Shown piece after piece: positions 9,318-63,532 of a stretch of DNA of 64,000 nucleotides. A program made the translations under genes and the position numbers. Under the pieces are notes generated by a model. The model saw only the letters and a list, made by a program, of their open reading frames with translations. It ran no database searches and was not told the DNA's origin. Within the stretch, counting starts at the first letter, position 1, and every line of letters starts with the position of its first letter. The DNA lies in the NCBI GenBank assembly GCA_023132875.1, contig JAGLXN010000017.1, positions 22,142 to 86,141 of the forward strand, read 5' to 3'. This DNA is from Candidatus Parcubacteria bacterium (GTDB lineage Bacteria > Patescibacteriota > Minisyncoccia > JAHIHE01 > JAGLIN01).

Positions 9318-10898
9318 ATGTCAATTATTTTAATTACAATATTAATATTATTTCTCATCAAAATTGTCCGTGATAGCTTGTTTTGTGTTTGGCTTTGGCA
9401 GGTGAAAGAATATCGGATAGATCGGATGAAATCTTATTTGAGAGACGAGAAAAGTATTATTTATAAAAATATTAATTATTTATTTGTTTTGATTTTATTT
9501 TTTATTTGCATTTTGGTTCCACAGCCATTCGGGACTATGGAACTAATGATTCTTATTTATTTAACGCTTTTATTTTTTACTTTTACTTTTTACCAAATTT
9601 TAATAGAAATAAAAGATAGAATTTTAAAAAGACCAAAGTTGACTTTTAAGATAATTCTAATATTTTTCATAGAAGCCACCTTTTATTTTTCGTTCTTTGT
9701 ATTTTACTGGATTCCCGCATTCGCGGGAATGACAAGACCTGCGGTCTTGATCCTACTATTACTATTTATTTATCTCATCACTCCTTTTTTAATTGCTACA
9801 ATTATTTTGTTAACAAATCCATTTTTTAATTTCCAAAAAAGAATAATAAAAAAAAAAGCCACCGAAAAAATGAAGGGATTGAAAAAAGTAAAAGTTATCG
9901 GTATTACGGGCAGTTACGGAAAGACAAGCACGAAAGAATTTCTATATGCGATATTGAACCAGAAATATAAAGTTGTAAAAACAGAAGGGAATAATAATAC
10001 GAATATCGGCGTGGCTTATACTGTTTTAAATAAAGTGAGTGATAAATATGATTATTTTATCTGTGAAATGGGCGCTTATAAAATTGGCGAAATCGCAGAA
10101 ATTTGTAAAATAGTAAAACCGGAAGTTGGAATTTTAACAGGAATTAACGAACAGCATATTGATTTATTTGGGTCTATTGAGAATACGGTTAAAGCGAAGT
10201 TTGAATTGATTGAGGCGTTGCCAGAGAACGGATTGGCGGTAATAAATGAAAAATTAAAAAATCAAAATGGAAAATTACAATTTAAAATTAAAAATGTTAA
10301 ATATTTTTCTTTGAACAATGTAAATGATATTAAAGTTTGTCAGGATTATGTAGGGTTTAATTATAAGAACTATAAATTTAAAACTAATCTTCTTGGCAAG
10401 CATTATATAGAAAATATTTTATCTGCTATAATGATAGCAGAATGTTTGGGAATAAGTTTGGATGAAATTGCAAAAGCAGTAGAGAAAATAAAACCGACTG
10501 AATTTATGATAAGAAAATTATACGGTCCAAATAATTCTATTTTTATTGATGACAGTTATAGCGCAAATCCTGATGGCGTAATCGCGGCGCTTGATTATTT
10601 AGATGAAGCGTATCAAGATTATAAAAAAATAATTGTTTTTCCAGGGATAATTGAATTGGGAAACAAGTCAAAAGAAGTGCATCAAAAATTATTTAGTAAA
10701 ATAGATAAAATTTGCGACTTTGCTTATATACTGAATACAGAATACAGAATACAGAATACTAATAACAAATTTGTTTTTGAGAAGGATTTTAATAAAGTGG
10801 CGAGAATGCTGAAAAATAATCTCAACGAAAAATCTGTTGTTCTTTTTGAAAGCCGGGGAGCGGGAGTGGCGATGGGAAAAGTAAAAATAGAAAAATAA
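9318..10898 (+). CDS. MurF-like Mur ligase with an N-terminal polytopic membrane domain of about 190 aa
   Basis: Mur ligase P-loop GITGSYGKTSTKE and C-terminal DDSYSANP signature; the N-terminus is strongly hydrophobic. Confidence 0.7.
   Translation: MSIILITILILFLIKIVRDSLFCVWLWQVKEYRIDRMKSYLRDEKSIIYKNINYLFVLILFFICILVPQPFGTMELMILIYLTLLFFTFTFYQILIEIKDRILKRPKLTFKIILIFFIEATFYFSFFVFYWIPAFAGMTRPAVLILLLLFIYLITPFLIATIILLTNPFFNFQKRIIKKKATEKMKGLKKVKVIGITGSYGKTSTKEFLYAILNQKYKVVKTEGNNNTNIGVAYTVLNKVSDKYDYFICEMGAYKIGEIAEICKIVKPEVGILTGINEQHIDLFGSIENTVKAKFELIEALPENGLAVINEKLKNQNGKLQFKIKNVKYFSLNNVNDIKVCQDYVGFNYKNYKFKTNLLGKHYIENILSAIMIAECLGISLDEIAKAVEKIKPTEFMIRKLYGPNNSIFIDDSYSANPDGVIAALDYLDEAYQDYKKIIVFPGIIELGNKSKEVHQKLFSKIDKICDFAYILNTEYRIQNTNNKFVFEKDFNKVARMLKNNLNEKSVVLFESRGAGVAMGKVKIEK
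9709..9753. repeat. Repeat family B hairpin (GGATTCCCGC-ATTC-GCGGGAATGAC plus AGACC-TGCG-GGTCT) inserted in-frame in the murF-like ORF
   Basis: Palindrome read directly; translates to IPAFAGMTRPAV. Confidence 0.6.
10733..10760 (+). repeat. In-frame heptamer tandem array (GAATACA x3, GAATACT) in the murF-like ORF
   Basis: Seen directly. Confidence 0.7.
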
Positions 10899-13523: not shown

Positions 13524-13566
13524 GAATCAGGAATCAGGAATCAGGAATTATGAATTAGGAATTAAG
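13524..13566. repeat. GAAT-core heptamer array (GAATCAG x3, GAATTAT, GAATTAG, GAATTAA) right after the FemAB-like stop
   Basis: Seen directly. Confidence 0.7.
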
Positions 13567-13629
13567 AACTTTCTATTTTTATAAAAATGCTTAGATGTTT
13601 ATTAGAAATGTTTATTGTAATAGATAAAA

Positions 13630-13656
13630 GATTCTGAAACAAGTTTAGAATGACAA
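13630..13656. repeat. Repeat family B hairpin GATTCTGAAACAAGTTTAGAATGACAA
   Basis: Same hairpin as at 61007 and inverted at 60857. Confidence 0.6.
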
Positions 13657-13720
13657 AATTTGTAATTTTTAAAATAAATTCCATAGTTTCATATAACATA
13701 CAATCCATAATTCATGATTC

Positions 13721-14752: not shown

Positions 14753-16360
14753 TTGAAATTTAAAATAATTAAAATGAAAAAAATACGAACAAGATTTGCG
14801 CCAAGCCCGACGGGATATCTTCATGTTGGAAGTTTAAGAACTGCGTTATATAATTATCTGTTTGCCAAACATAATAACGGCGATTTTATCCTGCGTATTG
14901 AAGATACGGATAAAGCAAGGTTTGTGGAGGGTTCTATTGAAAATTTAGTGAAAATATTGGACCTAATCGAGCTGAAATATAATGAAGGTGTATTTGTAGA
15001 TAATGACGGAAAAATCTCTCAAAAAGGCAATTTTGGGCCATATATACAATCTGAAAGGCTAGAAATATATAAAAAATATGTTGACAAGCTAATAAAAAAT
15101 GATTATGCATATTTTTGCTTCTGTAGTCAAGAACGGCTGGAAGAAATGAGAAAAGAACAGCAAGCGCAAAAAATGGCTCCTAAGTATGACGGAAAGTGCA
15201 GGGGACTGGATAAAAAAGAAATTCAAAGGCTTCTCGATAAAAAAACTCCCTATGTTGTTCGTCTAAAAACTCCGCAGGAAGGATTTACCGAATTTGATGA
15301 TCTAGTTTATGGAAAAATAAAAATTGAAAACAAGGTAATTGATGATCAAGTTTTGATGAAGTCCGATGGATTTCCAACATATCATTTGGCAAATGTCATT
15401 GATGATCATTTAATGGAAATTTCACATGTCATTCGGGGAGAGGAATGGCTTCCATCAACTCCAAAGCATGTTATTTTATATAAAGCGTTTGGGTGGGATA
15501 TGCCAGAGTTTGCTCATCTACCACTTCTTCTTAATCCCGATAAAAGCAAATTGAGTAAACGTCAGGGCGATGTCGCAGTAGAAAATTATCTAAAAAAAGG
15601 ATATTTACCAGAAGCATTGTTAAACTTTATATTATTACTTGGTTGGAATCCTAAAACTGAAGAAGAAATTTTTTCATTTGATGAAATGATAAAAAGATTT
15701 GATTTGTCTGGAGTTAATAAAACGGGAGCTATTTTCAGTGTAGAAAAACTGGATTGGATAAATGGAACGTATATTCGTTGTATGCCGCTTGAAGAACTTA
15801 CCGAACTTTGTGTTCCATATTTGATTGAGGCAGGATTGATAGAAAGAATTATGAATTATGAATTAAGAATAAAGAATAAAATTCAAAATTCAAAATTCTC
15901 CTCCCGAGGCGGATCAGCCTTGGGCTGGAAGATTCAAAATTCTGATAAGGAAGTAGATTTTGATTATTTAAAAAAAGTTATTGCGCTTGAACAGGAACGG
16001 ATGAAGAAATTGAGTGAGATAGGGGAGCTGGTAAAATTTATCTTTGTTGATAAATTAGATTATGATAAAGATTTACTGGTATGGAAAAAAATGAGCTTTG
16101 AAGAGGTAAAAAATAATTTAGAATTAGCTTATGATGAATTAGAAAAAATAGACGAGAAAGATTTTGTGAAAAATAATTTGGAAGAAGTTTTGAGAAATTT
16201 AATGGGACGAGAGGGGATTAAGACGGGAGAATTGTTATGGCCCTTGCGAGTAGCTTTGACTGGCCTGAAAGGATCACCAGGACCGTTTGAAGTGGCAAGC
16301 GTTTTGGGAAAGGGAAAAGCTTTAAAGAGGATCAGAAAGGTAATTGAATTATTGAGATAA
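14753..16360 (+). CDS. gltX: Glutamyl-tRNA synthetase
   Basis: HIGH (PSPTGYLHVGS) and KMSKS-like (KLSKR) motifs; contains an in-frame repeat insertion. Confidence 0.9.
   Translation: MKFKIIKMKKIRTRFAPSPTGYLHVGSLRTALYNYLFAKHNNGDFILRIEDTDKARFVEGSIENLVKILDLIELKYNEGVFVDNDGKISQKGNFGPYIQSERLEIYKKYVDKLIKNDYAYFCFCSQERLEEMRKEQQAQKMAPKYDGKCRGLDKKEIQRLLDKKTPYVVRLKTPQEGFTEFDDLVYGKIKIENKVIDDQVLMKSDGFPTYHLANVIDDHLMEISHVIRGEEWLPSTPKHVILYKAFGWDMPEFAHLPLLLNPDKSKLSKRQGDVAVENYLKKGYLPEALLNFILLLGWNPKTEEEIFSFDEMIKRFDLSGVNKTGAIFSVEKLDWINGTYIRCMPLEELTELCVPYLIEAGLIERIMNYELRIKNKIQNSKFSSRGGSALGWKIQNSDKEVDFDYLKKVIALEQERMKKLSEIGELVKFIFVDKLDYDKDLLVWKKMSFEEVKNNLELAYDELEKIDEKDFVKNNLEEVLRNLMGREGIKTGELLWPLRVALTGLKGSPGPFEVASVLGKGKALKRIRKVIELLR
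15846..15948. mobile_element. Repeat family A element (GAAT heptamers plus GC-rich core CCTCCCGAGGCGGATCAGCCTTGGGCTGG) inserted in-frame in gltX
   Basis: Core matches the copies at 36568, 50467 and 63030; encodes MNYELRIKNKIQNSKFSSRGGSALGWKIQNS. Confidence 0.65.
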
Positions 16361-27459: not shown

Positions 27460-27487
27460 TGATAATTATTTTAAGAGGTAAAATTTT

Positions 27488-27518
27488 TGTCATTCTCGCG
27501 GATGCGGGAATCCAGGAG
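27488..27518. repeat. Repeat family B hairpin TGTCATTCTCGCGGATGCGGGAATCCAGGAG
   Basis: Imperfect palindrome ATTCTCGC/GCGGGAAT. Confidence 0.55.
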
Positions 27519-27549
27519 AAAAATCGTATAGCTTAATTATTTTTTTATA

Positions 27550-33309: not shown

Positions 33310-33428
33310 TTTGTTTTTTAAAAATAATAGCCCGAAATAAATTCAGGCCGTCAACAAAATATCAATTATTAAAACTCTTAAAAAATAAAATTCTCATATT
33401 ATTATATTTATATCCTTGTTTTATATTT

Positions 33429-33472
33429 AACAATATAGCAATGGAACAATACAACAATTTAAATTACAATTC
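33429..33472. repeat. Repeat family C (ACAATACAACAAT motif cluster)
   Basis: AACAATATAGCAATGGAACAATACAACAATTTAAATTACAATTC. Confidence 0.5.
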
Positions 33473-34853: not shown

Positions 34854-35285
34854 TTATATGTTTCTTATTTCCCCGCCCGCTTTCTTGATTTTTTCCTCGG
34901 CATTTTTAGATATTGCACATTCTTCAATAATAATTTTTTTAGTCAAATCTCCATTTCCAAGGATTTTAACTCTCGGCTTTATTTTGCTTATCAACCCCTT
35001 TTTTAATAAAATTTTAGCGCTTATAATATCCCCGTCTTGAAAATTATTTTCCAAAGCAGAAACATTAACTACATTATTTTTATCATATATACTCTTAAAT
35101 CCCCTTAGTTTCGGAGTTCTTCTAAAAAGCGGAGTCTTAGTTCCTTCAAAGCTTTTTCCCTTGCCTCCGCCAGACCTTGCTTTCTGTCCTTTTGTTCCGC
35201 GAGTAGCAGTAGTCCCATGGGGTCCGCCGCGACCGACTCGCTTCTTTGCTTTTTTCTTGCTCGGTTTTAATTGATGTAATTGCAT
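34854..35285 (-). CDS. rplO: 50S ribosomal protein L15
   Basis: Gly/Arg-rich N-terminus RVGRGGPHGTTATRG. Confidence 0.9.
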   Translation of the reverse strand: MQLHQLKPSKKKAKKRVGRGGPHGTTATRGTKGQKARSGGGKGKSFEGTKTPLFRRTPKLRGFKSIYDKNNVVNVSALENNFQDGDIISAKILLKKGLISKIKPRVKILGNGDLTKKIIIEECAISKNAEEKIKKAGGEIRNI

Positions 35286-35373
35286 AAAATCATTTTAACA
35301 TATAAACATACTAACATTTTAACATACTAACATTTATTGTTAAAATATTTGATTAAGCAAATAATATAACAAT

Positions 35374-36132: not shown

Positions 36133-36489
36133 CTAAAAAACCAATCCCTCTTCACGGGCACCTTCAGCTACTGCTCTTACTCTTCCGTGATATTTATAGC
36201 CTCCTCTATCAAAAATAACTCTGCTTATATTTTTTTCCTGAGCTTTTTTTGCAATTAATTTTCCAACTTCTTTCGCAGCGTCAATCTTTATTTTCTTTCC
36301 TTTAATCTCTTTTTCGCTTGCGCTTGCCAAGGTAATTCCTAAATCATCATTAATCAGTTGAACAAATAATCCCTTATTGCTTCTAAATAAATTTAAACGC
36401 GGAGTTTCTGCTGTACCAATAATCTTAGAGCGAACTCGTTTATGCCTTCTTGTCTTAGCTTGTCTTTTTATTATTTCCTTATTTTTCAT
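36133..36489 (-). CDS. rplR: 50S ribosomal protein L18
   Basis: C-terminal [24 protein letters not shown]. Confidence 0.9.
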
Positions 36490-36545
36490 AAAAATATTTT
36501 GTTATAAAATTCTTAAAGTTTCTAATTTCCAAAATAATTTGAAAA

Positions 36546-36615
36546 TTTTGTCATTGAAAATTGATTGCCGGTCCAAGGCTGGTCCGCCTCGGGCGGAAAA
36601 ATTAGAAATTGAAAA
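36546..36615. mobile_element. Repeat family A copy (TTTTGTCATTGAAAATTGATTG-CCGGTCCAAGGCTGGTCCGCCTCGGGCGG-AAAAATTAGAAATT) in the rplR-rplF spacer
   Basis: Near-identical over about 70 nt to the copy at 50443..50512. Confidence 0.65.
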
Positions 36616-36616
36616 T

Positions 36617-37165
36617 TTACTCTCCTGTTCCCGCGACTTTCTTTCCAACTTTCCTTCTTACATGCTCTCCTAAATACCTTATCCCTTTTCCTTTATATGG
36701 TTCTGGCTTCTTTTTACTTCTTATATCAGCAGCAATTTGTCCTACAAGCTGCTTATTTATTCCAGCTATGGTAATAATATTTTTTTCAACATTAAATTCT
36801 ATTCCTTTTGGAGCTTTAAATATTACTAAATGTGAAAAGCCAAGACTAAGTTCCAGATCATTTCCTTTTTGAACTACCTTATACCCAACTCCTTGTATTT
36901 CAAGTTTTTTTTCAAATCCTTTTTCCGCTCCTTCAATCATATTAGCAATTAATGTTCTAGAAAGTCCCCAAATAGCATAATTTTTTTTTGTATTATTTTT
37001 TACAGATACTATAATATGATTGTCTTTAATCTCAATAGACATTTTTGAATCAATTTTATCAGTAAGCTCTCCTTTGGGCCCCTTGACAATAACTTCATTA
37101 TCTTTACTAACAGAAAATGTGACTCCTGATGGTATGTTTATTGGCTGTTTTCCTATTTTACTCAT
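36617..37165 (-). CDS. rplF: 50S ribosomal protein L6
   Basis: Conserved L6 sequence, tandem alpha/beta domains. Confidence 0.9.
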   Translation of the reverse strand: MSKIGKQPINIPSGVTFSVSKDNEVIVKGPKGELTDKIDSKMSIEIKDNHIIVSVKNNTKKNYAIWGLSRTLIANMIEGAEKGFEKKLEIQGVGYKVVQKGNDLELSLGFSHLVIFKAPKGIEFNVEKNIITIAGINKQLVGQIAADIRSKKKPEPYKGKGIRYLGEHVRRKVGKKVAGTGE

Positions 37166-37607: not shown

Positions 37608-37705
37608 GAATATTGAATTATGAATTTAGAATTACGAATTACGAATTACGAATCGACGATATTTTACAATCTTCATGATTCATAATTCATAATTCATAAT
37701 TCATC
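37608..37705. repeat. GAAT-core heptamer arrays in inverted orientation (GAATTAC x3 ... ATAATTC x3) in the rpsH-rpsN spacer
   Basis: Seen directly. Confidence 0.7.
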
Positions 37706-47837: not shown

Positions 47838-49811
47838 CTATCTAACATTTTCCCCTTTTAAATATAAGCCCAATTCATAGTCCGTAACAATTATTATATC
47901 TTCCCATTTATAGCCGTTGGAGATAAATACATCGGCGCTTGTTATCCATCTTTTATTTCCGTTTTCTATTAAATATACTTTGGGATCGGAGCCTTTTAAA
48001 AGTTTTTTGTCAAAATTGAAATCAGAACTTGTAACATCTTTTCCGTTTGAATACGAATTCAATTCATAATCCGTAACAATTATTATGTCTTCCCATTTAT
48101 AGCCATTTGAAATAAACACGGCAGGGCTTGTTATCCATCTTTTATTTTCGTTTTCTATTAAATACACTTCAGGACTTGATCCTTTTATTAAACTCCCGTC
48201 TGGCTTTAAATCAAAACTTGCTTTTATATTTTCTCCGTTGGGATATAATTCAAGCTCTAAATCTGTAACAATTACTATATCTTCCCATTTATAGCCATTT
48301 GAAATAAACACGGCAGGGCTTGTTATCCATCTTTTATTTTCGTTTTCTATTAAATAGACCCTGCTATCTTTCAGCGATTTTAGAAGAGAATCATTTTTAT
48401 ATTTATTGCTTTTAGCAATTTCTGCAGAAATAGAAAAAGAATATTTATTAATATTATTTCCAAAACCGGAAGTTTTTTTATGGCTTATTGGAATTATTGT
48501 AACAGAAGAGATATTTCTGTCCGAGCAGGAAACATAAAAATCAGAATTTTGCTTATCGTCCAAATTCAATTCGCCGATTTTTTTTGTTCCGTCCTCATAA
48601 GATATAACATAAGAAACAGAAAATTGCCCTATATCTTGTCCGTCAAAATTAATTTTAATTTTATTTTCATTTGCGCAATTTTTTTCCGCTATATCAAGTT
48701 CATAATATCCATTACTCCAATCTTTAATAGAATCATTTATATTTATTGTAACGACGGAGTTTAATTCATAAACATCTTTTGGCTGGATGTGAAAATTTTC
48801 ATAATTAAGATTTTTATTTTGATAGCTATATTTGCTATCCAATGATGTTCCGTTTATATAATTAGTTATAACCCAGTCTTTAAATACAGATTGAAAGGTG
48901 TCATTTTTATAATATAAATCTGATAACGCCTTATTAATGCTTTGAATTCCAACTTTATTATTATCTACCATTCTTTTAAATATTTCTTTCCCGAAACGAT
49001 CGGCTAAGTACTGGGAAAATAAGTTAACGGAAGAATAATCGTATATTTTATTCTGCCACTCCGTAAGCGAATCAACCGGATCAATTTCAAAATTTTTAAC
49101 TCTTGCCCTTAAATTGCTGCCCATATAATCATCGTCATAGCCTATCGCCGTAGAAGCATATTCCGACCTTGCTTCATTCAGCCATATATCGTCTGTAATA
49201 TTTCTTAATTTAGTTTTATGATACCAAGTGATCATATGCTGAAATTCATGCGCGAGAAAACTTTTTATTCTATTATCGCCTATAAAAGATATATTCAAAT
49301 AAACCATCTCTCTTTCGTTGCTTCTTTCGCCGGCTACTTCATCTTTTCTGTATTCATCGCTTGGATTGAAATATCCCCCGATATTTTCTTTTGTCTTTGT
49401 AAAAAGAATTGTAATTTTGCTGTCATTGTCAATCCCTGGATTCCATTCATATCCAAATGCTTCTCTTGTTTTTGGGTACACCGTATTGTCAAAATCTAAA
49501 ACTAAAGAATTTAAATGCGAATTAAATTCTAATTTGGAATTTCTTGATAAATTATTATAATAATCGTCTTCAACATAAAAATATGCGTTTACTCCGATTT
49601 TTTTTAAAGTCGCCGTTATTTCCAAACGCTCGCTGGAATCATAAGAAAGATCAACTAAAAATACTTTATTTTCTTCAAGCTCATTCGCTTTTGCGCTTGG
49701 AATTGCAGTTAATGAAATAATAAATAATAAAACAATACAAAAAAACAGCTTTAATCCTAAAACCGCCAACTCACCCCTCCTGTTAATATTTCTATTTTTT
49801 ATAAATCTCAT
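47838..49811 (-). CDS. Secreted/membrane-anchored putative zinc metalloprotease (HExxH) with three C-terminal tandem repeats of about 62 aa
   Basis: N-terminal hydrophobic anchor; HEFQHMITWYH motif; 3 x VYLIENxNKRWITSxxVFISNGYKWEDIxIVTDxEL. Confidence 0.6.
   Translation of the reverse strand: MRFIKNRNINRRGELAVLGLKLFFCIVLLFIISLTAIPSAKANELEENKVFLVDLSYDSSERLEITATLKKIGVNAYFYVEDDYYNNLSRNSKLEFNSHLNSLVLDFDNTVYPKTREAFGYEWNPGIDNDSKITILFTKTKENIGGYFNPSDEYRKDEVAGERSNEREMVYLNISFIGDNRIKSFLAHEFQHMITWYHKTKLRNITDDIWLNEARSEYASTAIGYDDDYMGSNLRARVKNFEIDPVDSLTEWQNKIYDYSSVNLFSQYLADRFGKEIFKRMVDNNKVGIQSINKALSDLYYKNDTFQSVFKDWVITNYINGTSLDSKYSYQNKNLNYENFHIQPKDVYELNSVVTININDSIKDWSNGYYELDIAEKNCANENKIKINFDGQDIGQFSVSYVISYEDGTKKIGELNLDDKQNSDFYVSCSDRNISSVTIIPISHKKTSGFGNNINKYSFSISAEIAKSNKYKNDSLLKSLKDSRVYLIENENKRWITSPAVFISNGYKWEDIVIVTDLELELYPNGENIKASFDLKPDGSLIKGSSPEVYLIENENKRWITSPAVFISNGYKWEDIIIVTDYELNSYSNGKDVTSSDFNFDKKLLKGSDPKVYLIENGNKRWITSADVFISNGYKWEDIIIVTDYELGLYLKGENVR
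47871..48360. repeat. Three tandem direct repeats of about 188 bp (high nucleotide identity) encoding the C-terminal protein repeats
   Basis: CAATTCATAGTCCGTAACAATTATTATATCTTCCCATTTATAGCC ... recurs at about 47871, 48058 and 48249. Confidence 0.8.
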
Positions 49812-50184: not shown

Positions 50185-50305
50185 TTCTATGGACAATTTT
50201 CAATTTTCAATTTCTAATTTTTATTGAATTTCTAATTTCTTAATGATTAAATCCAAAACTCAAAGCACCAAATTCCAAATAAATTCAAACATCAAAATTC
50301 TAAAC
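50185..50305. repeat. Degenerate heptamer array (CAATTTT x2, CAATTTC, TAATTTT ...) between tRNA-Gly and the ATPase gene
   Basis: Seen directly. Confidence 0.5.
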
Positions 50306-50442
50306 TATTAAGACTTGCGCGTTTCACAATTCGGAGCGTCCTAACTATTTTAAACTTTGTTTTGAATTTGTTATTTTGGTCATTGTAATTTATTTGTTAT
50401 TTGTGATTTTGAATTTATGATTTATCCAGTTGTTTAAAAATT

Positions 50443-50512
50443 TAGTCATTGGAAATTGATTGTCAACCCAAGGCTGATCCGCCTCGGGCGGAAAAATTAA
50501 AAATTTTATAAT
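50443..50512. mobile_element. Repeat family A copy (TTTAGTCATTGGAAATTGATTG-TCAACCCAAGGCTGATCCGCCTCGGGCGG-AAAAATTAAAAATT) downstream of the ATPase gene
   Basis: About 70-nt match to 36546..36615. Confidence 0.65.
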
Positions 50513-50533: not shown

Positions 50534-53047
50534 TTATAAATTTTGTTTTCTAATGTTGCTCTGAACTGTTGGCTTTACCCTAACCTCCGATCTTTCCAAT
50601 ATCTCCCTCTCTATAATTTCTCTATTTTTGCCAAATTTCAGAGTTGAAAGCTGTTTTATGGCTTCTGCAACTTCCGCGCTTCCTTTTTGCGGCGGATAGG
50701 TTGCCATATTAAATCCTTGGCTTATTGTGCCTCTTATCATCATCTTAATATAAGCGTTAAAATTATCAATATTTATCAGATCCTGTTCGTTAAAAACAGG
50801 CTTGAATTGTTTTGCCATAAACTCAGCGTCTTCCGGTCCAATTCGAAAAGAAATCATTGTTCCAACATTTCCAAATACAGATTTTTGTATTTCTTCAGGA
50901 AGCTGTCCCAAGAACTGATGAGCAATATTCAGCGATAGCCTGTATTTTCTCGCTTCTGAAAGAATTGTTGAGATGCTGTCAGTCGTGAAATTCTGAAATT
51001 CGTCAATATAGAAATAAAAATCTTTTCTTTCTTCCTGAGGCATATCAGTTCTACTGAGCGATGCGACTAAAATTTTTCCAACTATCACAAGACCAAGCAA
51101 ATAGGCGTTCATTTCTCCGATCTTTCCTTTTGAAAGATTGACAAGCAGAATTTTTTTGTTATCCATAATTTCCCTGAAATTGATAGAGCTTTTCTGCTGT
51201 CCGATAATAGGACGCATCGTATCATTAGAAATAAATTGTGTCAGCTTGCTTGTTATATAAGGAACCATATTAGCCAGCGCGGCTTCTCCTCCAGCCTTTT
51301 GAGCTTCTTTTTCCCAGAAATTTTTCACGGTAAAGTTTTCACATTTTGACAATTTGTATTTTCTAAATTCTTCATCGGCAAGCACTTTTGAAATTTCAAT
51401 TAAAGTCGAGCCTGACGCTGGATCATCCATAATTAAAAGCATCGCATTTCTCATATATTGCTCAAACATAGGACCGCCTGTTGCTTTTAAGTCATAAAGC
51501 TTGTCAAATATCTTTATCATTTCATTTATAACGAAAGTTTTTTGTTCCGGATAATTTTCATCATATTCAAGAAGATTTAATCCCATTGGTTTTTGAACAT
51601 TTGACGGATCAAACAGGACCACGTCTTCGGCACGCTCTTTCGGCACGCAGCCTAAAGCGTCTTCCACAAGATCGCCATGCGGATCAATAACGCAGAGCCC
51701 TTCTCCATTTTGTATATCCTGCCTTATTAACTCTCCTAAAAATCCAGATTTACCCGTTCCAGTTTGTCCAATTATATACATATGCCTTCTGCGGTCTTCT
51801 TTCTCTATTTTAATTATTCTATCTTCTCCTCTATGCGTATTATGCCCCAAAATTAAGCCTTCATTTGGAATATCAGAAGGCGCGGAAGCTTGTTTTGCTT
51901 TCAGCCATTTTACTTGCGGAGTAGCGGTCGTAGAAATTGGAAAATGAAACAAACTTGCCAGTTCCTCCGTATTTAAAATTATTTTTCTTTTCTTTTCAAA
52001 ATTTCTAAATATAAAATTATATATGGTTCTGTTTAAAAACCCCGCTTTATTTAAAAATGTTTCTTTAACATTTAGCGAATTAGAATCCGGCAAATTAAAC
52101 TGAGAAAAAGAATTTTCAAGCTCTTTTAACAGAGTTTCGGCTTTTTCTTTTGTTCCAGCTGAAGTAACAAGGCGCACATTGATTTCAAAGCCAATTTTGG
52201 TTGATTTTGCCTCTACCGCTTTCATAACTTCTTCCTGCGATGGCGTTAAATTTACTTTTACCTCCTCTTTTTGCTGATCTTCCGCTGATTTTCCTCCCGC
52301 GCTTATTATTCCTATAAATTCTTTTAATACTTTAACTGGCAAAGAAGGTTTTCCCTGTTCGCCGAATCCTTTGCCTTTTTGCATTAGTTTCATTCTTTCT
52401 TTACTCTCGCTCTGCCAAGAATTGCCGGATGGTTTTATCACAAATTGGAGAGCCGCTCCTTCTCCGATTGGAATCTTGCTAAGCGCGTTTGTCATGCTTG
52501 AAAGCGGATCGGCTTCAAGATGCTGATATGTTTTTATCGGAAAAATGTCATTTCTTTTTAGCATCATATATGAAGCCGCTGATCCTCCATCTGGCACAAA
52601 AATATTATAGTCTTCTATCTGCGTTATTTCCGCGTCGGCATAAAAACTGTGAATTTGTTTTTCTATGATAGATTGAAATTTTTTTGGAACCGAAACATAG
52701 AAAAATATCTCATTGCTGTCAATCGGAGTGGCAATTTCAAAAGACAAATAAAATGGACCATAAATGATTTTCTTAAGCATTTCTTCCCTGATATTGCTCA
52801 AGCTCGCGAAAAGCTGCTCCATTACGGAAATATTCTCTTTTTCTTTTTCGCTTTTATTTTGCGGCTGATCTTCTATTATTCTTGGAACAGAGACTTGCAA
52901 CACGATCATATTAAGAGATCTTGTGATTTTTCCAGTGCTAGAAAGCCTCATTTTTACATAAATAAACACAACTATAAAAATGACCAGTGCGATTGCAAGA
53001 TCTAAAAGACCAATTTCGATTATATAATTGCTTATAAATAGTTCCAT
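50534..53047 (-). CDS. Membrane-anchored VirB4/VirD4(TraG)-family type IV secretion/conjugation-like AAA ATPase
   Basis: N-terminal TM; Walker A IIGQTGTGKSGF; DPHGD; Walker B FYFYIDEFQNF; C-terminal ARKYRLSLNIAHQFLGQL resembles the T4CP/VirB4 C-terminal Q-x-x-x-Q motif. Confidence 0.65.
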   Translation of the reverse strand: MELFISNYIIEIGLLDLAIALVIFIVVFIYVKMRLSSTGKITRSLNMIVLQVSVPRIIEDQPQNKSEKEKENISVMEQLFASLSNIREEMLKKIIYGPFYLSFEIATPIDSNEIFFYVSVPKKFQSIIEKQIHSFYADAEITQIEDYNIFVPDGGSAASYMMLKRNDIFPIKTYQHLEADPLSSMTNALSKIPIGEGAALQFVIKPSGNSWQSESKERMKLMQKGKGFGEQGKPSLPVKVLKEFIGIISAGGKSAEDQQKEEVKVNLTPSQEEVMKAVEAKSTKIGFEINVRLVTSAGTKEKAETLLKELENSFSQFNLPDSNSLNVKETFLNKAGFLNRTIYNFIFRNFEKKRKIILNTEELASLFHFPISTTATPQVKWLKAKQASAPSDIPNEGLILGHNTHRGEDRIIKIEKEDRRRHMYIIGQTGTGKSGFLGELIRQDIQNGEGLCVIDPHGDLVEDALGCVPKERAEDVVLFDPSNVQKPMGLNLLEYDENYPEQKTFVINEMIKIFDKLYDLKATGGPMFEQYMRNAMLLIMDDPASGSTLIEISKVLADEEFRKYKLSKCENFTVKNFWEKEAQKAGGEAALANMVPYITSKLTQFISNDTMRPIIGQQKSSINFREIMDNKKILLVNLSKGKIGEMNAYLLGLVIVGKILVASLSRTDMPQEERKDFYFYIDEFQNFTTDSISTILSEARKYRLSLNIAHQFLGQLPEEIQKSVFGNVGTMISFRIGPEDAEFMAKQFKPVFNEQDLINIDNFNAYIKMMIRGTISQGFNMATYPPQKGSAEVAEAIKQLSTLKFGKNREIIEREILERSEVRVKPTVQSNIRKQNL

Positions 53048-60729: not shown

Positions 60730-60856
60730 ATTTTTAATCTAAGCTATATTTAAGGCTAATTTCTATTAAATTATACCATTTATGGAGAAAAACGGCAATA
60801 GCAAATCATATAAACATTTGAACATATCTGAATGATAACTCATTGTTCCAAAGAAT

Positions 60857-61032
60857 TGTCATTCTGAACTCGTTTCAGAATCTTTCTGTTGCTACATTGA
60901 ACAATCCTATAAAGCATCAAACGCTTTACTAAATTGAAAATACAATAATTGTAATATGATTCTTGGCGTTGTTGCAAATAGGATAAATTATACCTAACAG
61001 AAAATAGATTCTGAAACAAGTTCAGAATGACA
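60857..61032. mobile_element. 176-bp MITE-like element flanked by inverted family-B hairpins (TGTCATTCTGAACTCGTTTCAGAATC ... GATTCTGAAACAAGTTCAGAATGACA)
   Basis: Both terminal hairpins seen directly in opposite orientation. Confidence 0.6.
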
Positions 61033-61050
61033 AAGCTAAATTAATTCATC

Positions 61051-62692: not shown

Positions 62693-63532
62693 TTATTTTT
62701 TCAAAACCATCCACCCAAATTTTATCGTCGCGTTATAAATTCGTTTTATTCTTCGCGGATTCAAGATCAATCGCCACAGCCATTCCAATCCCAATTTTTG
62801 GAAAATCAATGGCGCGCGTTTGACTTCACCAGATATAAAATCAAACGATCCGCCGACTCCAATTGCCAGCTTTACGCTTGGCAATTTTTTTAAGTTCTCA
62901 TAAATCCATTCTTCCTGTTTAGGAACGCCAAACGCAACGAGTATTATATCTGGTTTTGTTCTATTTATCCGCTGAATTAATTCTTCATTTAACTTATGAA
63001 ACTTATTATTATAAGAATTTGGAATTTTTCCTCCCAAGGCGGACCAGCCTTTGGCTGGGAATTTGGAATTTTGAGATTTATTTGGTATTTGGTATTTGGT
63101 ATTTGGTATTTCAAACCACATTCCCTCCTCCGCGCCCACGATATTTAAACGATCATACTTTTTAGATAAAACTTTTGCGGCTTCTCCCGCTATCCCTTCT
63201 CCCGCTCCTAATAAATATATCTTTTTACCTTTTATAAGTTCAGATTCACAGATTTTATAAATTAAATTAATACCCGTAATTTTTTCGGGCAATGTTTTAT
63301 GATTTAAAAATTTGTTCGCAAATAAAATTCCTGTTCCATCCGGAATAATAATATCGGCTTCATTTATAATTTTTTTAAAGTGATTATTTTTTCGAGCTTC
63401 AACAACCATTTCTGGGTTTAGTGTTACAATATAATGTTGTTGATCCGATAATAAAAAACTCTTGATTTTTTCAAGAACTTCTTTTGTTGTAATCTTATTT
63501 ACTTTTACATCTAATATTTTTTCATAATTCAT
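62693..63532 (-). CDS. WecB/TagA/CpsF-family glycosyltransferase carrying an in-frame family A repeat insertion
   Basis: N-terminal WecB/TagA-like region IIIPDGTGI; insertion encodes EIPNTKYQIPNKSQNSKFPAKGWSALGGKIPNS. Confidence 0.65.
   Translation of the reverse strand: MNYEKILDVKVNKITTKEVLEKIKSFLLSDQQHYIVTLNPEMVVEARKNNHFKKIINEADIIIPDGTGILFANKFLNHKTLPEKITGINLIYKICESELIKGKKIYLLGAGEGIAGEAAKVLSKKYDRLNIVGAEEGMWFEIPNTKYQIPNKSQNSKFPAKGWSALGGKIPNSYNNKFHKLNEELIQRINRTKPDIILVAFGVPKQEEWIYENLKKLPSVKLAIGVGGSFDFISGEVKRAPLIFQKLGLEWLWRLILNPRRIKRIYNATIKFGWMVLKK
63015..63112. mobile_element. Repeat family A element (core CCTCCCAAGGCGGACCAGCCTTTGGCTGGG plus ATTTGGT x4 heptamers) in-frame inside the wecB-like gene
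   Basis: Core matches 15899, 36568 and 50467. Confidence 0.65.

What the first reader, a model, noticed from the sequence alone, without database searches (positions are those of the whole stretch)
36546..36615. Near-identical 70-nt family A copies in intergenic DNA (rplR-rplF spacer; copy at 50443..50512 downstream of the ATPase gene)
TTT(T/A)GTCATTG(A/G)AAATTGATTG..CCAAGGCTG(G/A)TCCGCCTCGGGCGGAAAAATTA(G/A)AAATT is almost identical at two loci 14 kb apart. One locus is inside the otherwise compact spc ribosomal operon. The GC-rich core forms a CCGCC-TCG-GGCGG hairpin. This suggests recent mobility, or a functional small RNA or processing site.
Basis: seen in the sequence. Interest (0 to 1): 0.5.

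Follow-up and report, generated by a model that had tools for sequence, protein, structure and literature searches.

The report
Thirty-base double-hairpin mobile repeat
The two look-alike spacer sequences are copies of an apparently undescribed 30-base, two-hairpin DNA repeat found across the ultra-small Patescibacteria, which inserts cleanly into spacers and even in frame into essential genes, and which in other genomes sits next to small GIY-YIG nuclease genes beside serine tRNA genes.

Summary
The two sequences match at 59 of 70 bases, but the second copy is at 50441-50510, 2 nt from the coordinates given.

The conserved unit is a 30-nt core, YCAGCC-NAA-GGCTGR + TCCGCC-TYG-GGCGGA: two abutting 6-bp hairpins. 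The window holds exactly four copies. Two are intergenic (36568-36597, 50463-50492). Two lie in frame inside gltX (15899-15928) and a tagA-like gene (63029-63058).

The same core occurs in at least 118 genome contigs, nearly all Patescibacteria. 107 of 123 instances with full flanks carry both hairpins, with compensatory changes.

Relatives with empty sites show a precise 30-nt (10-codon) insertion without target duplication. Orientation relative to transcription is random. 80 other spc operons have no copy. There is no terminator signature, and the stop-containing variant is excluded from ORFs. It therefore behaves as mobile DNA that is translated when inside genes, not as an spc-operon RNA signal or an intron.

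In other genomes a copy lies 6-35 nt upstream of an 80-100 aa GIY-YIG nuclease gene, inside a truncated tRNA-Ser 5' fragment, with an intact tRNA-Ser downstream. An independent GIY-YIG-based sample showed this for 7 of 7 queries. That the nuclease drives mobility is inferred, not shown.

The parts
36568..36597 (+). Element copy 1 (30-nt core, CCGGTCCAAGGCTGGTCCGCCTCGGGCGGA). It lies in the rplF-rplR spacer, 19 nt after the rplF stop and 78 nt before the rplR start, antisense to the operon. Hairpin 1 is degraded; hairpin 2 is intact.
   Evidence: 46.8 bits, E 9e-9
36546..36615 (+). The 70-nt block of the finding: AT-rich left arm TTTTGTCATTGAAAATTGATTG + core + right arm AAAATTAGAAATTG.
   Evidence: 59/70 identical to 50441-50510
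50463..50492 (+). Element copy 2 (TCAACCCAAGGCTGATCCGCCTCGGGCGGA). It lies 41 nt after the stop of the TraG/VirD4-like ATPase gene and 349 nt from tRNA-Gly. Hairpin 1 has one mismatch.
   Evidence: 49.8 bits
50441..50510 (+). The second 70-nt block in correct register with 36546-36615.
15899..15928 (-). Element copy 3, in frame inside gltX. It is read on the + strand as SSRGGSALGW. It carries the rare C1/A15 mismatch, which avoids a TGA on the coding strand.
63029..63058 (-). Element copy 4, in frame inside the tagA/wecG-like glycosyltransferase gene. It is read on the - strand as PAKGWSALGG.
14753..16360 (+). Host gene gltX (glutamyl-tRNA synthetase). The element sits in an AT-rich, heptamer-coded low-complexity linker between the catalytic and anticodon-binding domains.
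62693..63532 (-). Host gene, WecG/TagA-family glycosyltransferase. About 38 extra residues (aa 143-182) relative to solved TagA; 10 of them are the element.
36617..37165 (-). rplF (L6), upstream neighbour of copy 1.
36133..36489 (-). rplR (L18), downstream neighbour of copy 1.
50534..53047 (-). 837-aa TraG/VirD4/HerA-like ATPase gene, upstream neighbour of copy 2.

Best explanation
The finding is two of four copies in this window of a 30-bp GC-rich dispersed repeat specific to Patescibacteria (CPR bacteria). Its consensus is YCAGCC-NAA-GGCTGR immediately followed by TCCGCC-TYG-GGCGGA. Either DNA strand, or an RNA copy, folds into two abutting 6-bp hairpins with 3-nt loops.

It behaves as a small non-autonomous mobile DNA element:
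- It enters as a discrete 30-bp unit, in either orientation, with no target-site duplication. It mostly lands in AT-rich heptamer tracts (T at -2, RAA at +1 to +3).
- It persists only where it is harmless: in spacers and in variable linkers of proteins.
- Inside genes it is read through as exactly 10 extra codons.

In the rplF-rplR spacer it is a co-transcribed passenger, not a conserved operon signal.

The most likely driver is inferred, not shown. It is a family of 80-100-aa single-domain GIY-YIG nucleases. In many Patescibacteria the nuclease gene is preceded at 6-35 nt by a copy of this element lodged in a truncated tRNA-Ser 5' fragment, and is followed by an intact tRNA-Ser. I propose that the nuclease acts on the folded double hairpin and that repair copies the element to new sites. 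Solo copies such as those in this window would then be its miniature derivatives, much as REP sequences relate to their RAYT transposase.
For: Shown:
- Four copies in the window, 0 expected by chance.
By record title these are overwhelmingly Patescibacteria of many classes.
- 107 of 123 instances with full flanks carry both hairpins. The other 16 include chance hits in high-GC genomes outside this group.
- Positions 1 and 15 covary: C-G 56, T-A 49, C-A 2.
- On 42 distinct variants, 96.2% of cells are paired and 4 pairs change on both sides. 0 of 500 shuffles reach these values, and slid controls collapse.
- Diverged members keep both stems, e.g. TGGGCCCAAGGCCCA+CCCGCCATGGGCGGG and CCAGCCCGAGGCTGG+TCGGCCTTGGGCCGA.
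- Empty sites: the syntenic relative L120 reads ...AAAATTC|AAAATTC... where the window has the 30 nt. TagA homolog P0122 lacks exactly PAKGWSALGG, while P0121 (95% identical) has it.
- No strand bias relative to transcription.
- Evidence for translation: the T/A variant, which has TGA in phase 0 in both orientations, occurs in 2 of 25 copies inside ORFs against 47 of 82 outside (p=7.6e-6), and both of those are in other phases. The gltX copy has a C at position 1 that breaks the stem but turns TGA into TGG. Phase 0 is used in 17 of 25.

GIY-YIG link:
- The top gene cluster next to elements is a GIY-YIG family (Pfam PF01541, E 1e-12 to 1e-17).
- 8 of 12 such genes lie within 140 nt of a copy (p=2e-7).
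- Loci sampled by the GIY-YIG protein alone show the module [tRNA-Ser 5' fragment + element] - GIY-YIG - tRNA-Ser for 7 of 7 queries.
- 31 of 124 instances of the core lie within 200 nt of a tRNA, against 5.2% of locus positions (p=2e-13).
Against: - No transposition event, enzyme activity or recent (near-identical) filled/empty pair has been seen. The closest empty sites are in genomes only 80-83% identical in protein.
- The window has no GIY-YIG gene, and the rest of the 831-kb source scaffold could not be read. Whether this genome encodes the proposed driver is unknown.
- The GIY-YIG sample came from homologs of one element-adjacent gene, so it shows a conserved module, not causation. The element could equally be a 5'-UTR or DNA structure serving that gene.
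- The depletion of the T/A variant in ORFs could be confounded by lineage.
- All four window copies are degenerate, so at least here the element is not demonstrably active.
- 13 of 43 intergenic copies lie within 20 nt after a stop codon. This would also fit a REP-like role at mRNA 3' ends.
- Some record titles name other phyla; I did not verify those taxonomic labels.
Confidence: 0.7

Rival explanations
1. A host-beneficial, REP-like RNA/DNA structure. The hairpins would stabilise upstream mRNA, act as a processing or partial termination site, or bind a nucleoid protein, and copies would be kept by selection at gene ends, including between rplF and rplR.
For: Strong, conserved GC hairpins in an AT-rich genome. 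Compensatory changes keep the stems. 13 of 43 co-directional intergenic copies lie within 20 nt after the upstream stop, including copy 1 at 19 nt. The element stands in the 5' UTR of GIY-YIG genes.
Against: Random orientation. No U-tract terminator. Absent from 80 other spc operons. 25-38 of 107 copies lie inside ORFs. The window copies have degraded stems. Origin by insertion is shown at two sites.
Confidence: 0.12
2. A REP/PATE-type element moved by an HUH (Y1) single-strand transposase of the IS200/IS605 or RAYT kind, which also inserts hairpin-bearing DNA without target duplication. The GIY-YIG association would be incidental.
For: No target duplication, no terminal inverted repeats, a hairpin at each end, and insertion in either orientation.
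Against: No GTAG or CGTC tag at either end of the consensus (tags as defined in PMC3733652). No recurrent transposase-like gene among ORFs within 1.5 kb of 105 copies; the only recurrent mobile-type neighbours are the GIY-YIG genes and, in 4 loci, a large recombinase-like ORF that I did not annotate. 30 bp is far below the known minimal IS608 ends (from memory).
Confidence: 0.1
3. A miniature intervening sequence removed at the RNA level (an intron-like element) from tRNAs and mRNAs.
For: The length is exactly 10 codons. Copies lie inside tRNA-like sequence at D-loop and anticodon-loop positions and inside essential genes. The two hairpins bring the element's ends together.
Against: Removing the 30 nt in silico (with shifts of up to 4 nt either way) restores a tRNA in 0 of 124 cases. 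The tRNA-like flanks are truncated fragments lying beside intact genes. Stop-codon avoidance and frame bias in ORFs argue for translation. No known bacterial machinery would do this.
Confidence: 0.03
4. A host DNA signal kept by selection: an uptake sequence, a recombination site or a protein-binding site.
For: Near-identical sequence across deeply diverged classes.
Against: About one copy per 16 kb in this window. The copies arise as insertions rather than by point mutation. They are degenerate here. Placement is irregular and orientation shows no bias.
Confidence: 0.05

Closest known systems
REP / REPIN sequences with their RAYT transposase (Enterobacteria, Pseudomonas)
   Same: Short (20-40 bp) GC-rich palindromic dispersed repeats. 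No target duplication. Many solo copies, plus copies next to a single small nuclease-type gene that is the presumed driver. Often located just after genes.
   Different: Two tandem hairpins rather than one. No GTAG/CGTC tag. Not restricted to extragenic DNA. Sequence conserved across a whole superphylum rather than one species. The neighbouring gene is a GIY-YIG nuclease beside tRNA-Ser, not a Y1 HUH transposase.
Rickettsia palindromic elements (RPE)
   Same: Palindromic repeats that insert in frame into essential protein genes and appear to be translated as extra loops. Also found in spacers and near RNA genes.
   Different: RPEs are about 100-150 bp and confined to Rickettsia (from memory). 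This element is 30 bp, adds exactly 10 codons, and is nested in AT-rich heptamer-coded low-complexity tracts.
IS200/IS605-derived miniature elements (PATEs)
   Same: No terminal inverted repeats, no target duplication, a hairpin near each end.
   Different: No Y1 transposase partner seen. Much shorter. Target preference (T at -2, RAA after) is only weakly defined.
Free-standing GIY-YIG homing endonuclease genes, e.g. phage T4 SegB in the tRNA gene cluster
   Same: A small mobile GIY-YIG gene lodged among tRNA genes, with partial duplication or co-conversion of flanking tRNA sequence (T4 SegB: PMC13096335 abstract and memory).
   Different: The Patescibacteria proteins are only 80-100 aa (catalytic domain alone). 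Each carries a conserved double-hairpin repeat upstream, and that repeat also exists as hundreds of solo copies. No homing has been shown.
Neisseria Correia elements, Coxiella QMITEs and other bacterial MITEs
   Same: Small non-autonomous repeats that are co-transcribed with genes and sometimes extend or interrupt ORFs (PMC5896051, PMC3184786).
   Different: Those have terminal inverted repeats and target duplications and are 100 bp or longer.

Membership tests
REP / REPIN-RAYT | Imperfect palindrome of 20-40 bp present in many copies | tested here: met
   30 bp; two 6-bp stems; 4 copies in 64 kb; at least 118 contigs
REP / REPIN-RAYT | Conserved GTAG or CGTC tetranucleotide at one end | tested here: not met
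   The consensus ends are YCAGCC... and ...GGCGGA; no such tag within or next to the element
REP / REPIN-RAYT | Extragenic location | tested here: not met
   25 of 107 (strict count) to 38 of 107 copies lie inside long ORFs
REP / REPIN-RAYT | Associated Y1 (RAYT) transposase gene flanked by copies | tested here: inconclusive
   Clustering of ORFs within 1.5 kb of 105 copies gave no obvious Y1 family; the recurrent neighbour is GIY-YIG. Only the GIY-YIG cluster was scanned against Pfam, and whole genomes were not searched.
MITE | Terminal inverted repeats | tested here: not met
   The ends are CCAGCC and GGCGGA. The flanks show no inverted complementarity above the shuffled control.
MITE | Target-site duplication | tested here: not met
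   Net insertion is exactly 30 nt in gltX (DNA) and 10 aa in TagA. The flanking direct repeats are pre-existing heptamer tracts.
Rickettsia palindromic elements | In-frame insertion into protein-coding genes, tolerated as an extra peptide | tested here: met
   gltX and tagA copies are in frame. Stop avoidance and frame bias are seen. Translation itself has not been observed.
Rickettsia palindromic elements | Element of about 100-150 bp belonging to the RPE sequence families | tested here: not met
   30 bp. The host range is Patescibacteria, not Rickettsia. No sequence comparison with RPE families was run; the RPE size and host range are from memory.
IS200/IS605-type miniature element | No TIR, no TSD, hairpins near both ends | tested here: met
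IS200/IS605-type miniature element | Insertion 3' of a fixed tetra- or pentanucleotide, and a TnpA(Y1) partner | tested here: inconclusive
   Only T at -2 (68/107) and A at +2 (95/107) are enriched. No partner was seen.
Intrinsic terminator | GC-rich hairpin followed directly by a U tract | tested here: not met
   0 terminator-like sites at either intergenic copy. The usual flanks are T-rich before and A-rich after.
tRNA / mRNA intron | Removal restores a functional gene | tested here: not met
   0 of 124 tRNAs restored by in-silico excision. ORFs stay open with the element in place.
Known RNA family (Rfam 15) | Match at or above the gathering score | tested here: not met
   Only two tRNAs in the window. 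Best weak hit is CRISPR-DR58, 19.9 bits against a threshold of 38.
GIY-YIG homing-endonuclease cassette | GIY-YIG ORF adjacent to the repeat and to its target gene | tested here: met
   True in other genomes. Not true in this window.
GIY-YIG homing-endonuclease cassette | Endonuclease cleaves the empty allele and is copied in by repair | not testable with these tools
   Needs biochemistry or genetic crosses

The most novel reading that the evidence does not exclude
The 30-bp double hairpin is the cis-acting partner of a previously unrecognised kind of bacterial mobile DNA. It would be driven by a minimal (about 80 aa) GIY-YIG nuclease that lives beside tRNA-Ser genes. The relationship would parallel REP-RAYT but use a different enzyme class. 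Its solo copies would continually seed exact 10-codon insertions into essential proteins throughout the Patescibacteria.
Probability: 0.35. Interest if true: 0.8.

Novelty: new variant of a known kind. Interest (0 to 1): 0.62.

Why it matters
Patescibacteria have tiny, streamlined genomes, yet they carry many unexplained insertions.

This element gives a concrete, sequence-defined marker, and it gives testable questions. First, how does 30 bp of DNA enter a genome without target duplication? Second, is a catalytic-domain-only GIY-YIG nuclease enough to move DNA? Third, how much of the length variation in proteins of this group comes from translated repeats?

There are also practical consequences:
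- The element and the tRNA fragments beside it can mislead gene and tRNA annotation.
- The repeat is a likely cause of assembly breaks.
- Filled and empty sites could serve as strain markers.

For the spc operon itself the result is negative: the spacer sequence is a passenger, not a conserved regulatory signal.

Tried and rejected
1. tRNA mini-intron. Many flanks looked like tRNA halves. However, ARAGORN after removing the 30 nt (shifts of -4 to +4) restored none of 124. The flanks are truncated duplicates lying next to intact tRNAs.
2. Known RNA family. Rfam at gathering and at permissive thresholds gave nothing.
3. Terminator or promoter. The scans were at background level.
4. Closing helix formed by the flanks. 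No complementarity above the shuffled control.
5. Target-site duplication. The perfect 14-nt direct repeats beside some copies looked like a duplication, but the empty sites show they are pre-existing heptamer tracts.
6. Other double-hairpin families in the window. A structural scan found none beyond this one.
7. An empty rplF-rplR spacer in a close relative. The metagenome scan returned only relatives with L18 at most 64% identical. They have no copy, but they are too distant to serve as an empty-site pair.
8. A first fuzzy-regex scan missed one copy and was replaced by a Hamming scan and a covariance model.
9. Literature. Neither the sequence nor REP/MITE-type repeats in Patescibacteria were found in the searchable library. 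This does not prove that the element is unpublished.
10. Phage carriage. Only one viral sequence (two identical contig pieces) has a copy.

Full report
OBSERVATION.
Both reported sequences are present. The repeat finder pairs 36519-36610 with 50414-50505: 92 nt at 80% identity. The GC-rich core is far beyond chance: 0 matches in 100 shuffles.

A covariance model built from the family and run without filters finds exactly four copies in the window:
- 15899-15928 (-)
- 36568-36597 (+)
- 50463-50492 (+)
- 63029-63058 (-)

ANATOMY.
The conserved unit is 30 nt: YCAGCC-NAA-GGCTGR directly followed by TCCGCC-TYG-GGCGGA. That is two abutting 6-bp stems with 3-nt loops. The consensus folds this way on both strands: -11.9 and -12.2 kcal/mol as ssDNA, z -3.9 and -4.3.

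Each of the four window copies has one weakened stem. The two intergenic copies also share AT-rich arms: GTCATTGRAAATTGATTG on the left and AAAATTARAAATT on the right. These arms occur nowhere else in the window. This is why they look like a 70-nt family.

SURROUNDINGS.
The S10/spc gene order runs on the minus strand. Copy 1 lies 19 nt after the rplF stop and 78 nt before the rplR start, antisense to the operon. Spacers in this operon are 13-154 nt long and full of AT-rich 7-8-nt repeats, so it is not compact. In 75 other spc operons the rplF-rplR spacer has a median of about 8 nt.

Copy 2 lies 41 nt after the stop of a TraG/VirD4-like ATPase gene.

Copies 3 and 4 lie inside ORFs, in frame. 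One is gltX (Pfam catalytic and anticodon-binding domains). The other is a WecG/TagA glycosyltransferase gene. Alignment to solved structures places both in regions with no counterpart in the solved proteins: about 31-36 extra residues in GluRS and about 38 in TagA.

DISTRIBUTION.
By record title these are almost all Patescibacteria of many classes: Moran-, Pacei-, Uhr-, Falkow-, Magasanik-, Wolfe- and Nomurabacteria and others. Some assemblies carry other taxonomic labels that I did not verify.

Of 123 instances with full flanks, 107 carry both hairpins. The other 16 include chance hits in high-GC genomes outside this group. The flanks are unrelated between genomes. Best protein hits place the window itself in the Paceibacteria. 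Its source is an 831-kb metagenome scaffold.

STRUCTURE IS CONSTRAINED.
Positions 1 and 15 covary almost perfectly: C-G 56, T-A 49, C-A 2. On 42 distinct variants, 96.2% of cells pair and four pairs show changes on both sides. No shuffle out of 500 reaches the observed values, and sliding the partners destroys the signal.

The sample was ascertained with a fixed core, which limits this test. However, diverged members found by Hamming or model scans keep both stems through compensated changes.

IT IS AN INSERTION, AND A CLEAN ONE.
GluRS homologs at 83% identity (P0002) read ...NSKF|KIQNS..., where the window protein has ...NSKF-SSRGGSALGW-KIQNS.... At the DNA level the syntenic locus L120 reads ...CAAAATTCAAAATTC|AAAATTCAAAATTCTG..., and the window has exactly the 30 nt at that junction.

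TagA homolog P0122 (80% identical) lacks exactly PAKGWSALGG, while P0121 (95% identical) has it.

The net gain is therefore 30 nt with no target duplication. Direct repeats do abut many copies: the longest shared string between the flanks averages 5.57 nt against 4.04 +/- 0.11 in the control. These are the heptamer tracts into which the element inserts. Flanks show 7-nt periodicity, with T at -2 in 68 of 107 and A at +2 in 95 of 107.

The same protein loops in other Paceibacteria carry the element in the other orientation or frame (SAQGGPALGW; PPEANQPWAD). They also carry other small palindromic families.

NOT AN ORIENTATION-SPECIFIC RNA, A TERMINATOR OR AN INTRON.
- Orientation relative to transcription is even: 21 same and 22 opposite in co-directional spacers, 18 and 20 in ORFs.
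- None of 80 other spc operons has a copy.
- Rfam gives nothing.
- There is no hairpin-plus-U-tract at either intergenic copy.
- I first suspected a tRNA mini-intron, because many flanks look like tRNA halves. In-silico excision restores no tRNA in 124 cases.

TRANSLATED WHEN IN GENES (INFERRED).
The T/A variant creates a TGA in phase 0 in both orientations. It makes up 47 of 82 copies outside ORFs but only 2 of 25 inside (p=7.6e-6), and both of those are in other phases. The gltX copy has the rare C at position 1. This breaks the stem but turns the would-be TGA into TGG. Phase 0, which encodes Gly/Ala/Ser/Pro-rich peptides, accounts for 17 of 25. Lineage effects could contribute to these patterns.

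THE LEAD ON MECHANISM.
Instances of the core are enriched near tRNA genes: 31 of 124 lie within 200 nt, against 5.2% of locus positions (p=2e-13). They often sit inside a truncated copy of the neighbouring tRNA.

Clustering all ORFs within 1.5 kb of copies gave one recurrent mobile-type family: 80-100-aa single-domain GIY-YIG nucleases. 8 of 12 such genes in the element-sampled loci lie within 140 nt of a copy (p=2e-7).

The recurring layout has three parts:
1. A 5' fragment of a tRNA (usually Ser) interrupted by the double hairpin, in either orientation.
2. After 6-35 nt, the GIY-YIG ORF.
3. After a few more nucleotides, an intact tRNA of the same type.

As an independent test I sampled loci by the nuclease protein alone. 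Its homologs are 70-80% identical across several classes. All seven queries showed the same module, for example L218: GGAGAGGT[element]GGCTGAGT...ATG-GIY-YIG...GGAGAGGTGGCTGAGTGG (tRNA-Ser). One pair of loci encoding the identical nuclease protein (L212 and L213) differs by the element plus 20 nt. Loci with tRNA-Tyr carry a different double-hairpin element in the same position.

The window has no GIY-YIG gene.

INTERPRETATION.
What is shown:
- A superphylum-wide, structurally constrained 30-bp repeat.
- It arises by precise insertion without target duplication.
- It has no strand preference.
- It is tolerated in spacers and in protein linkers.
- It is tightly associated with a GIY-YIG/tRNA-Ser module.

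What is inferred:
- That it is translated.
- That the GIY-YIG nuclease moves it, perhaps by cutting the folded hairpins. From memory, each loop with its closing pair has the C-NNN-G form preferred by the I-TevI catalytic domain.
- That the solo copies here are miniature derivatives.

For the spc operon, the element is a passenger. It may incidentally add a stable hairpin to the mRNA.

COMPARISON AND NOVELTY.
The element works most like REP sequences with their RAYT partner, and like Rickettsia palindromic elements. It fails defining features of REPs (no GTAG/CGTC tag, not extragenic, no Y1 gene seen). It fails those of MITEs (no inverted termini, no target duplication). It also fails those of RPEs (size). 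Free-standing GIY-YIG genes in tRNA clusters have a precedent in phage T4 SegB (PMC13096335).

I found no description of this sequence, or of such repeats in Patescibacteria, in the searchable literature. One paper lists GIY-YIG genes among horizontally transferred Patescibacteria genes (PMC12455944).

I rate it a new variant of a known kind: small palindromic mobile repeats, here with an unusual candidate driver.

Noticed in passing
window 10726-10759, 13524-13568, 33428-33461, 35283-35334, 37608-37652, 63075-63110 and most other spacers: Nearly every intergenic spacer holds AT-rich tandem repeats with a 7-8 nt period (GAATTAC, ATACAGA, GGTATTT, CATNNNAA, AACAATNN). The same heptamer tracts also occur inside genes as low-complexity peptides such as IPNTKYQIPNKSQNSKF, and they are where the 30-nt element lands.
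   Followed up: partly
window 60856-60894 / 60995-61033 (inverted pair, 100 nt apart) and 13618-13657: A second small repeat family with ends TTGTCATTCTGAAC...GTTCAGAATGACAA. In TagA homologs of other genomes, peptides that this sequence would encode (CHSELVSES, VILNLFQNL) appear in the same variable loop.
   Followed up: partly
window 9702-9735 (inside ORF 9318-10898, in frame as WIPAFAGMT) and 27487-27520 (intergenic): A third palindromic family, GGATTCCCGC-NNNN-GCGGGAATGACAA. The relative L120 has YWISVFMGVT at the same place, so this is not a simple presence/absence insertion.
   Followed up: partly
L122:2109-2318 (gltX of relative P0012; the insert lies at about 2210-2240), aligned to window 15899-15928: At the same spot where the window has the 30-nt element, another relative has a different or decayed 24-nt GC-rich insert encoding TCPREALG. 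This suggests a recurrent insertion hot spot or an old insertion.
   Followed up: partly
L100:330-1084: A tandem duplication of [tRNA-Tyr 5' fragment + a different GC-rich double hairpin (CCCACCGCCTTCGGCGGGG...) + GIY-YIG gene], followed by an intact tRNA-Tyr. L009 has the same layout. The module is therefore not limited to tRNA-Ser or to this one repeat family.
   Followed up: partly
L090:6623-7024: A GIY-YIG gene of the module is itself interrupted by two other small palindromic repeats (GTCATTCCGGGCTCGATCCGGAATC and CTGAATCAAGTTCAGGATGAC).
   Followed up: no
window 47838-49811 (ORF, minus strand), repeats at 47843-48379: A 657-aa ORF contains three tandem copies of a 156-nt unit (74-100% identical, about 190-nt spacing).
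   Followed up: no
L120:15717-17013: The syntenic relative carries Zot-like and rolling-circle Rep (REP_ORF2-G2P) genes downstream of the region shared with the window. This may be an integrated inovirus-like element that is absent from, or different in, the window.
   Followed up: no
L203:6537-6566 and L204 (IMG/VR contigs): One viral sequence carries a full copy of the element. It appears to lie inside an acidic, repetitive ORF (judged by eye) and is again flanked by heptamer-like repeats (ACTTTCT).
   Followed up: partly
window 50290-50345: GC-richer patch AGACTTGCGCGTTTCACAATTCGGAGCGTCCTAAC between tRNA-Gly and copy 2. Its reverse complement vaguely resembles a tRNA D-arm/anticodon-arm fragment. 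Neither ARAGORN nor Rfam calls it.
   Followed up: no
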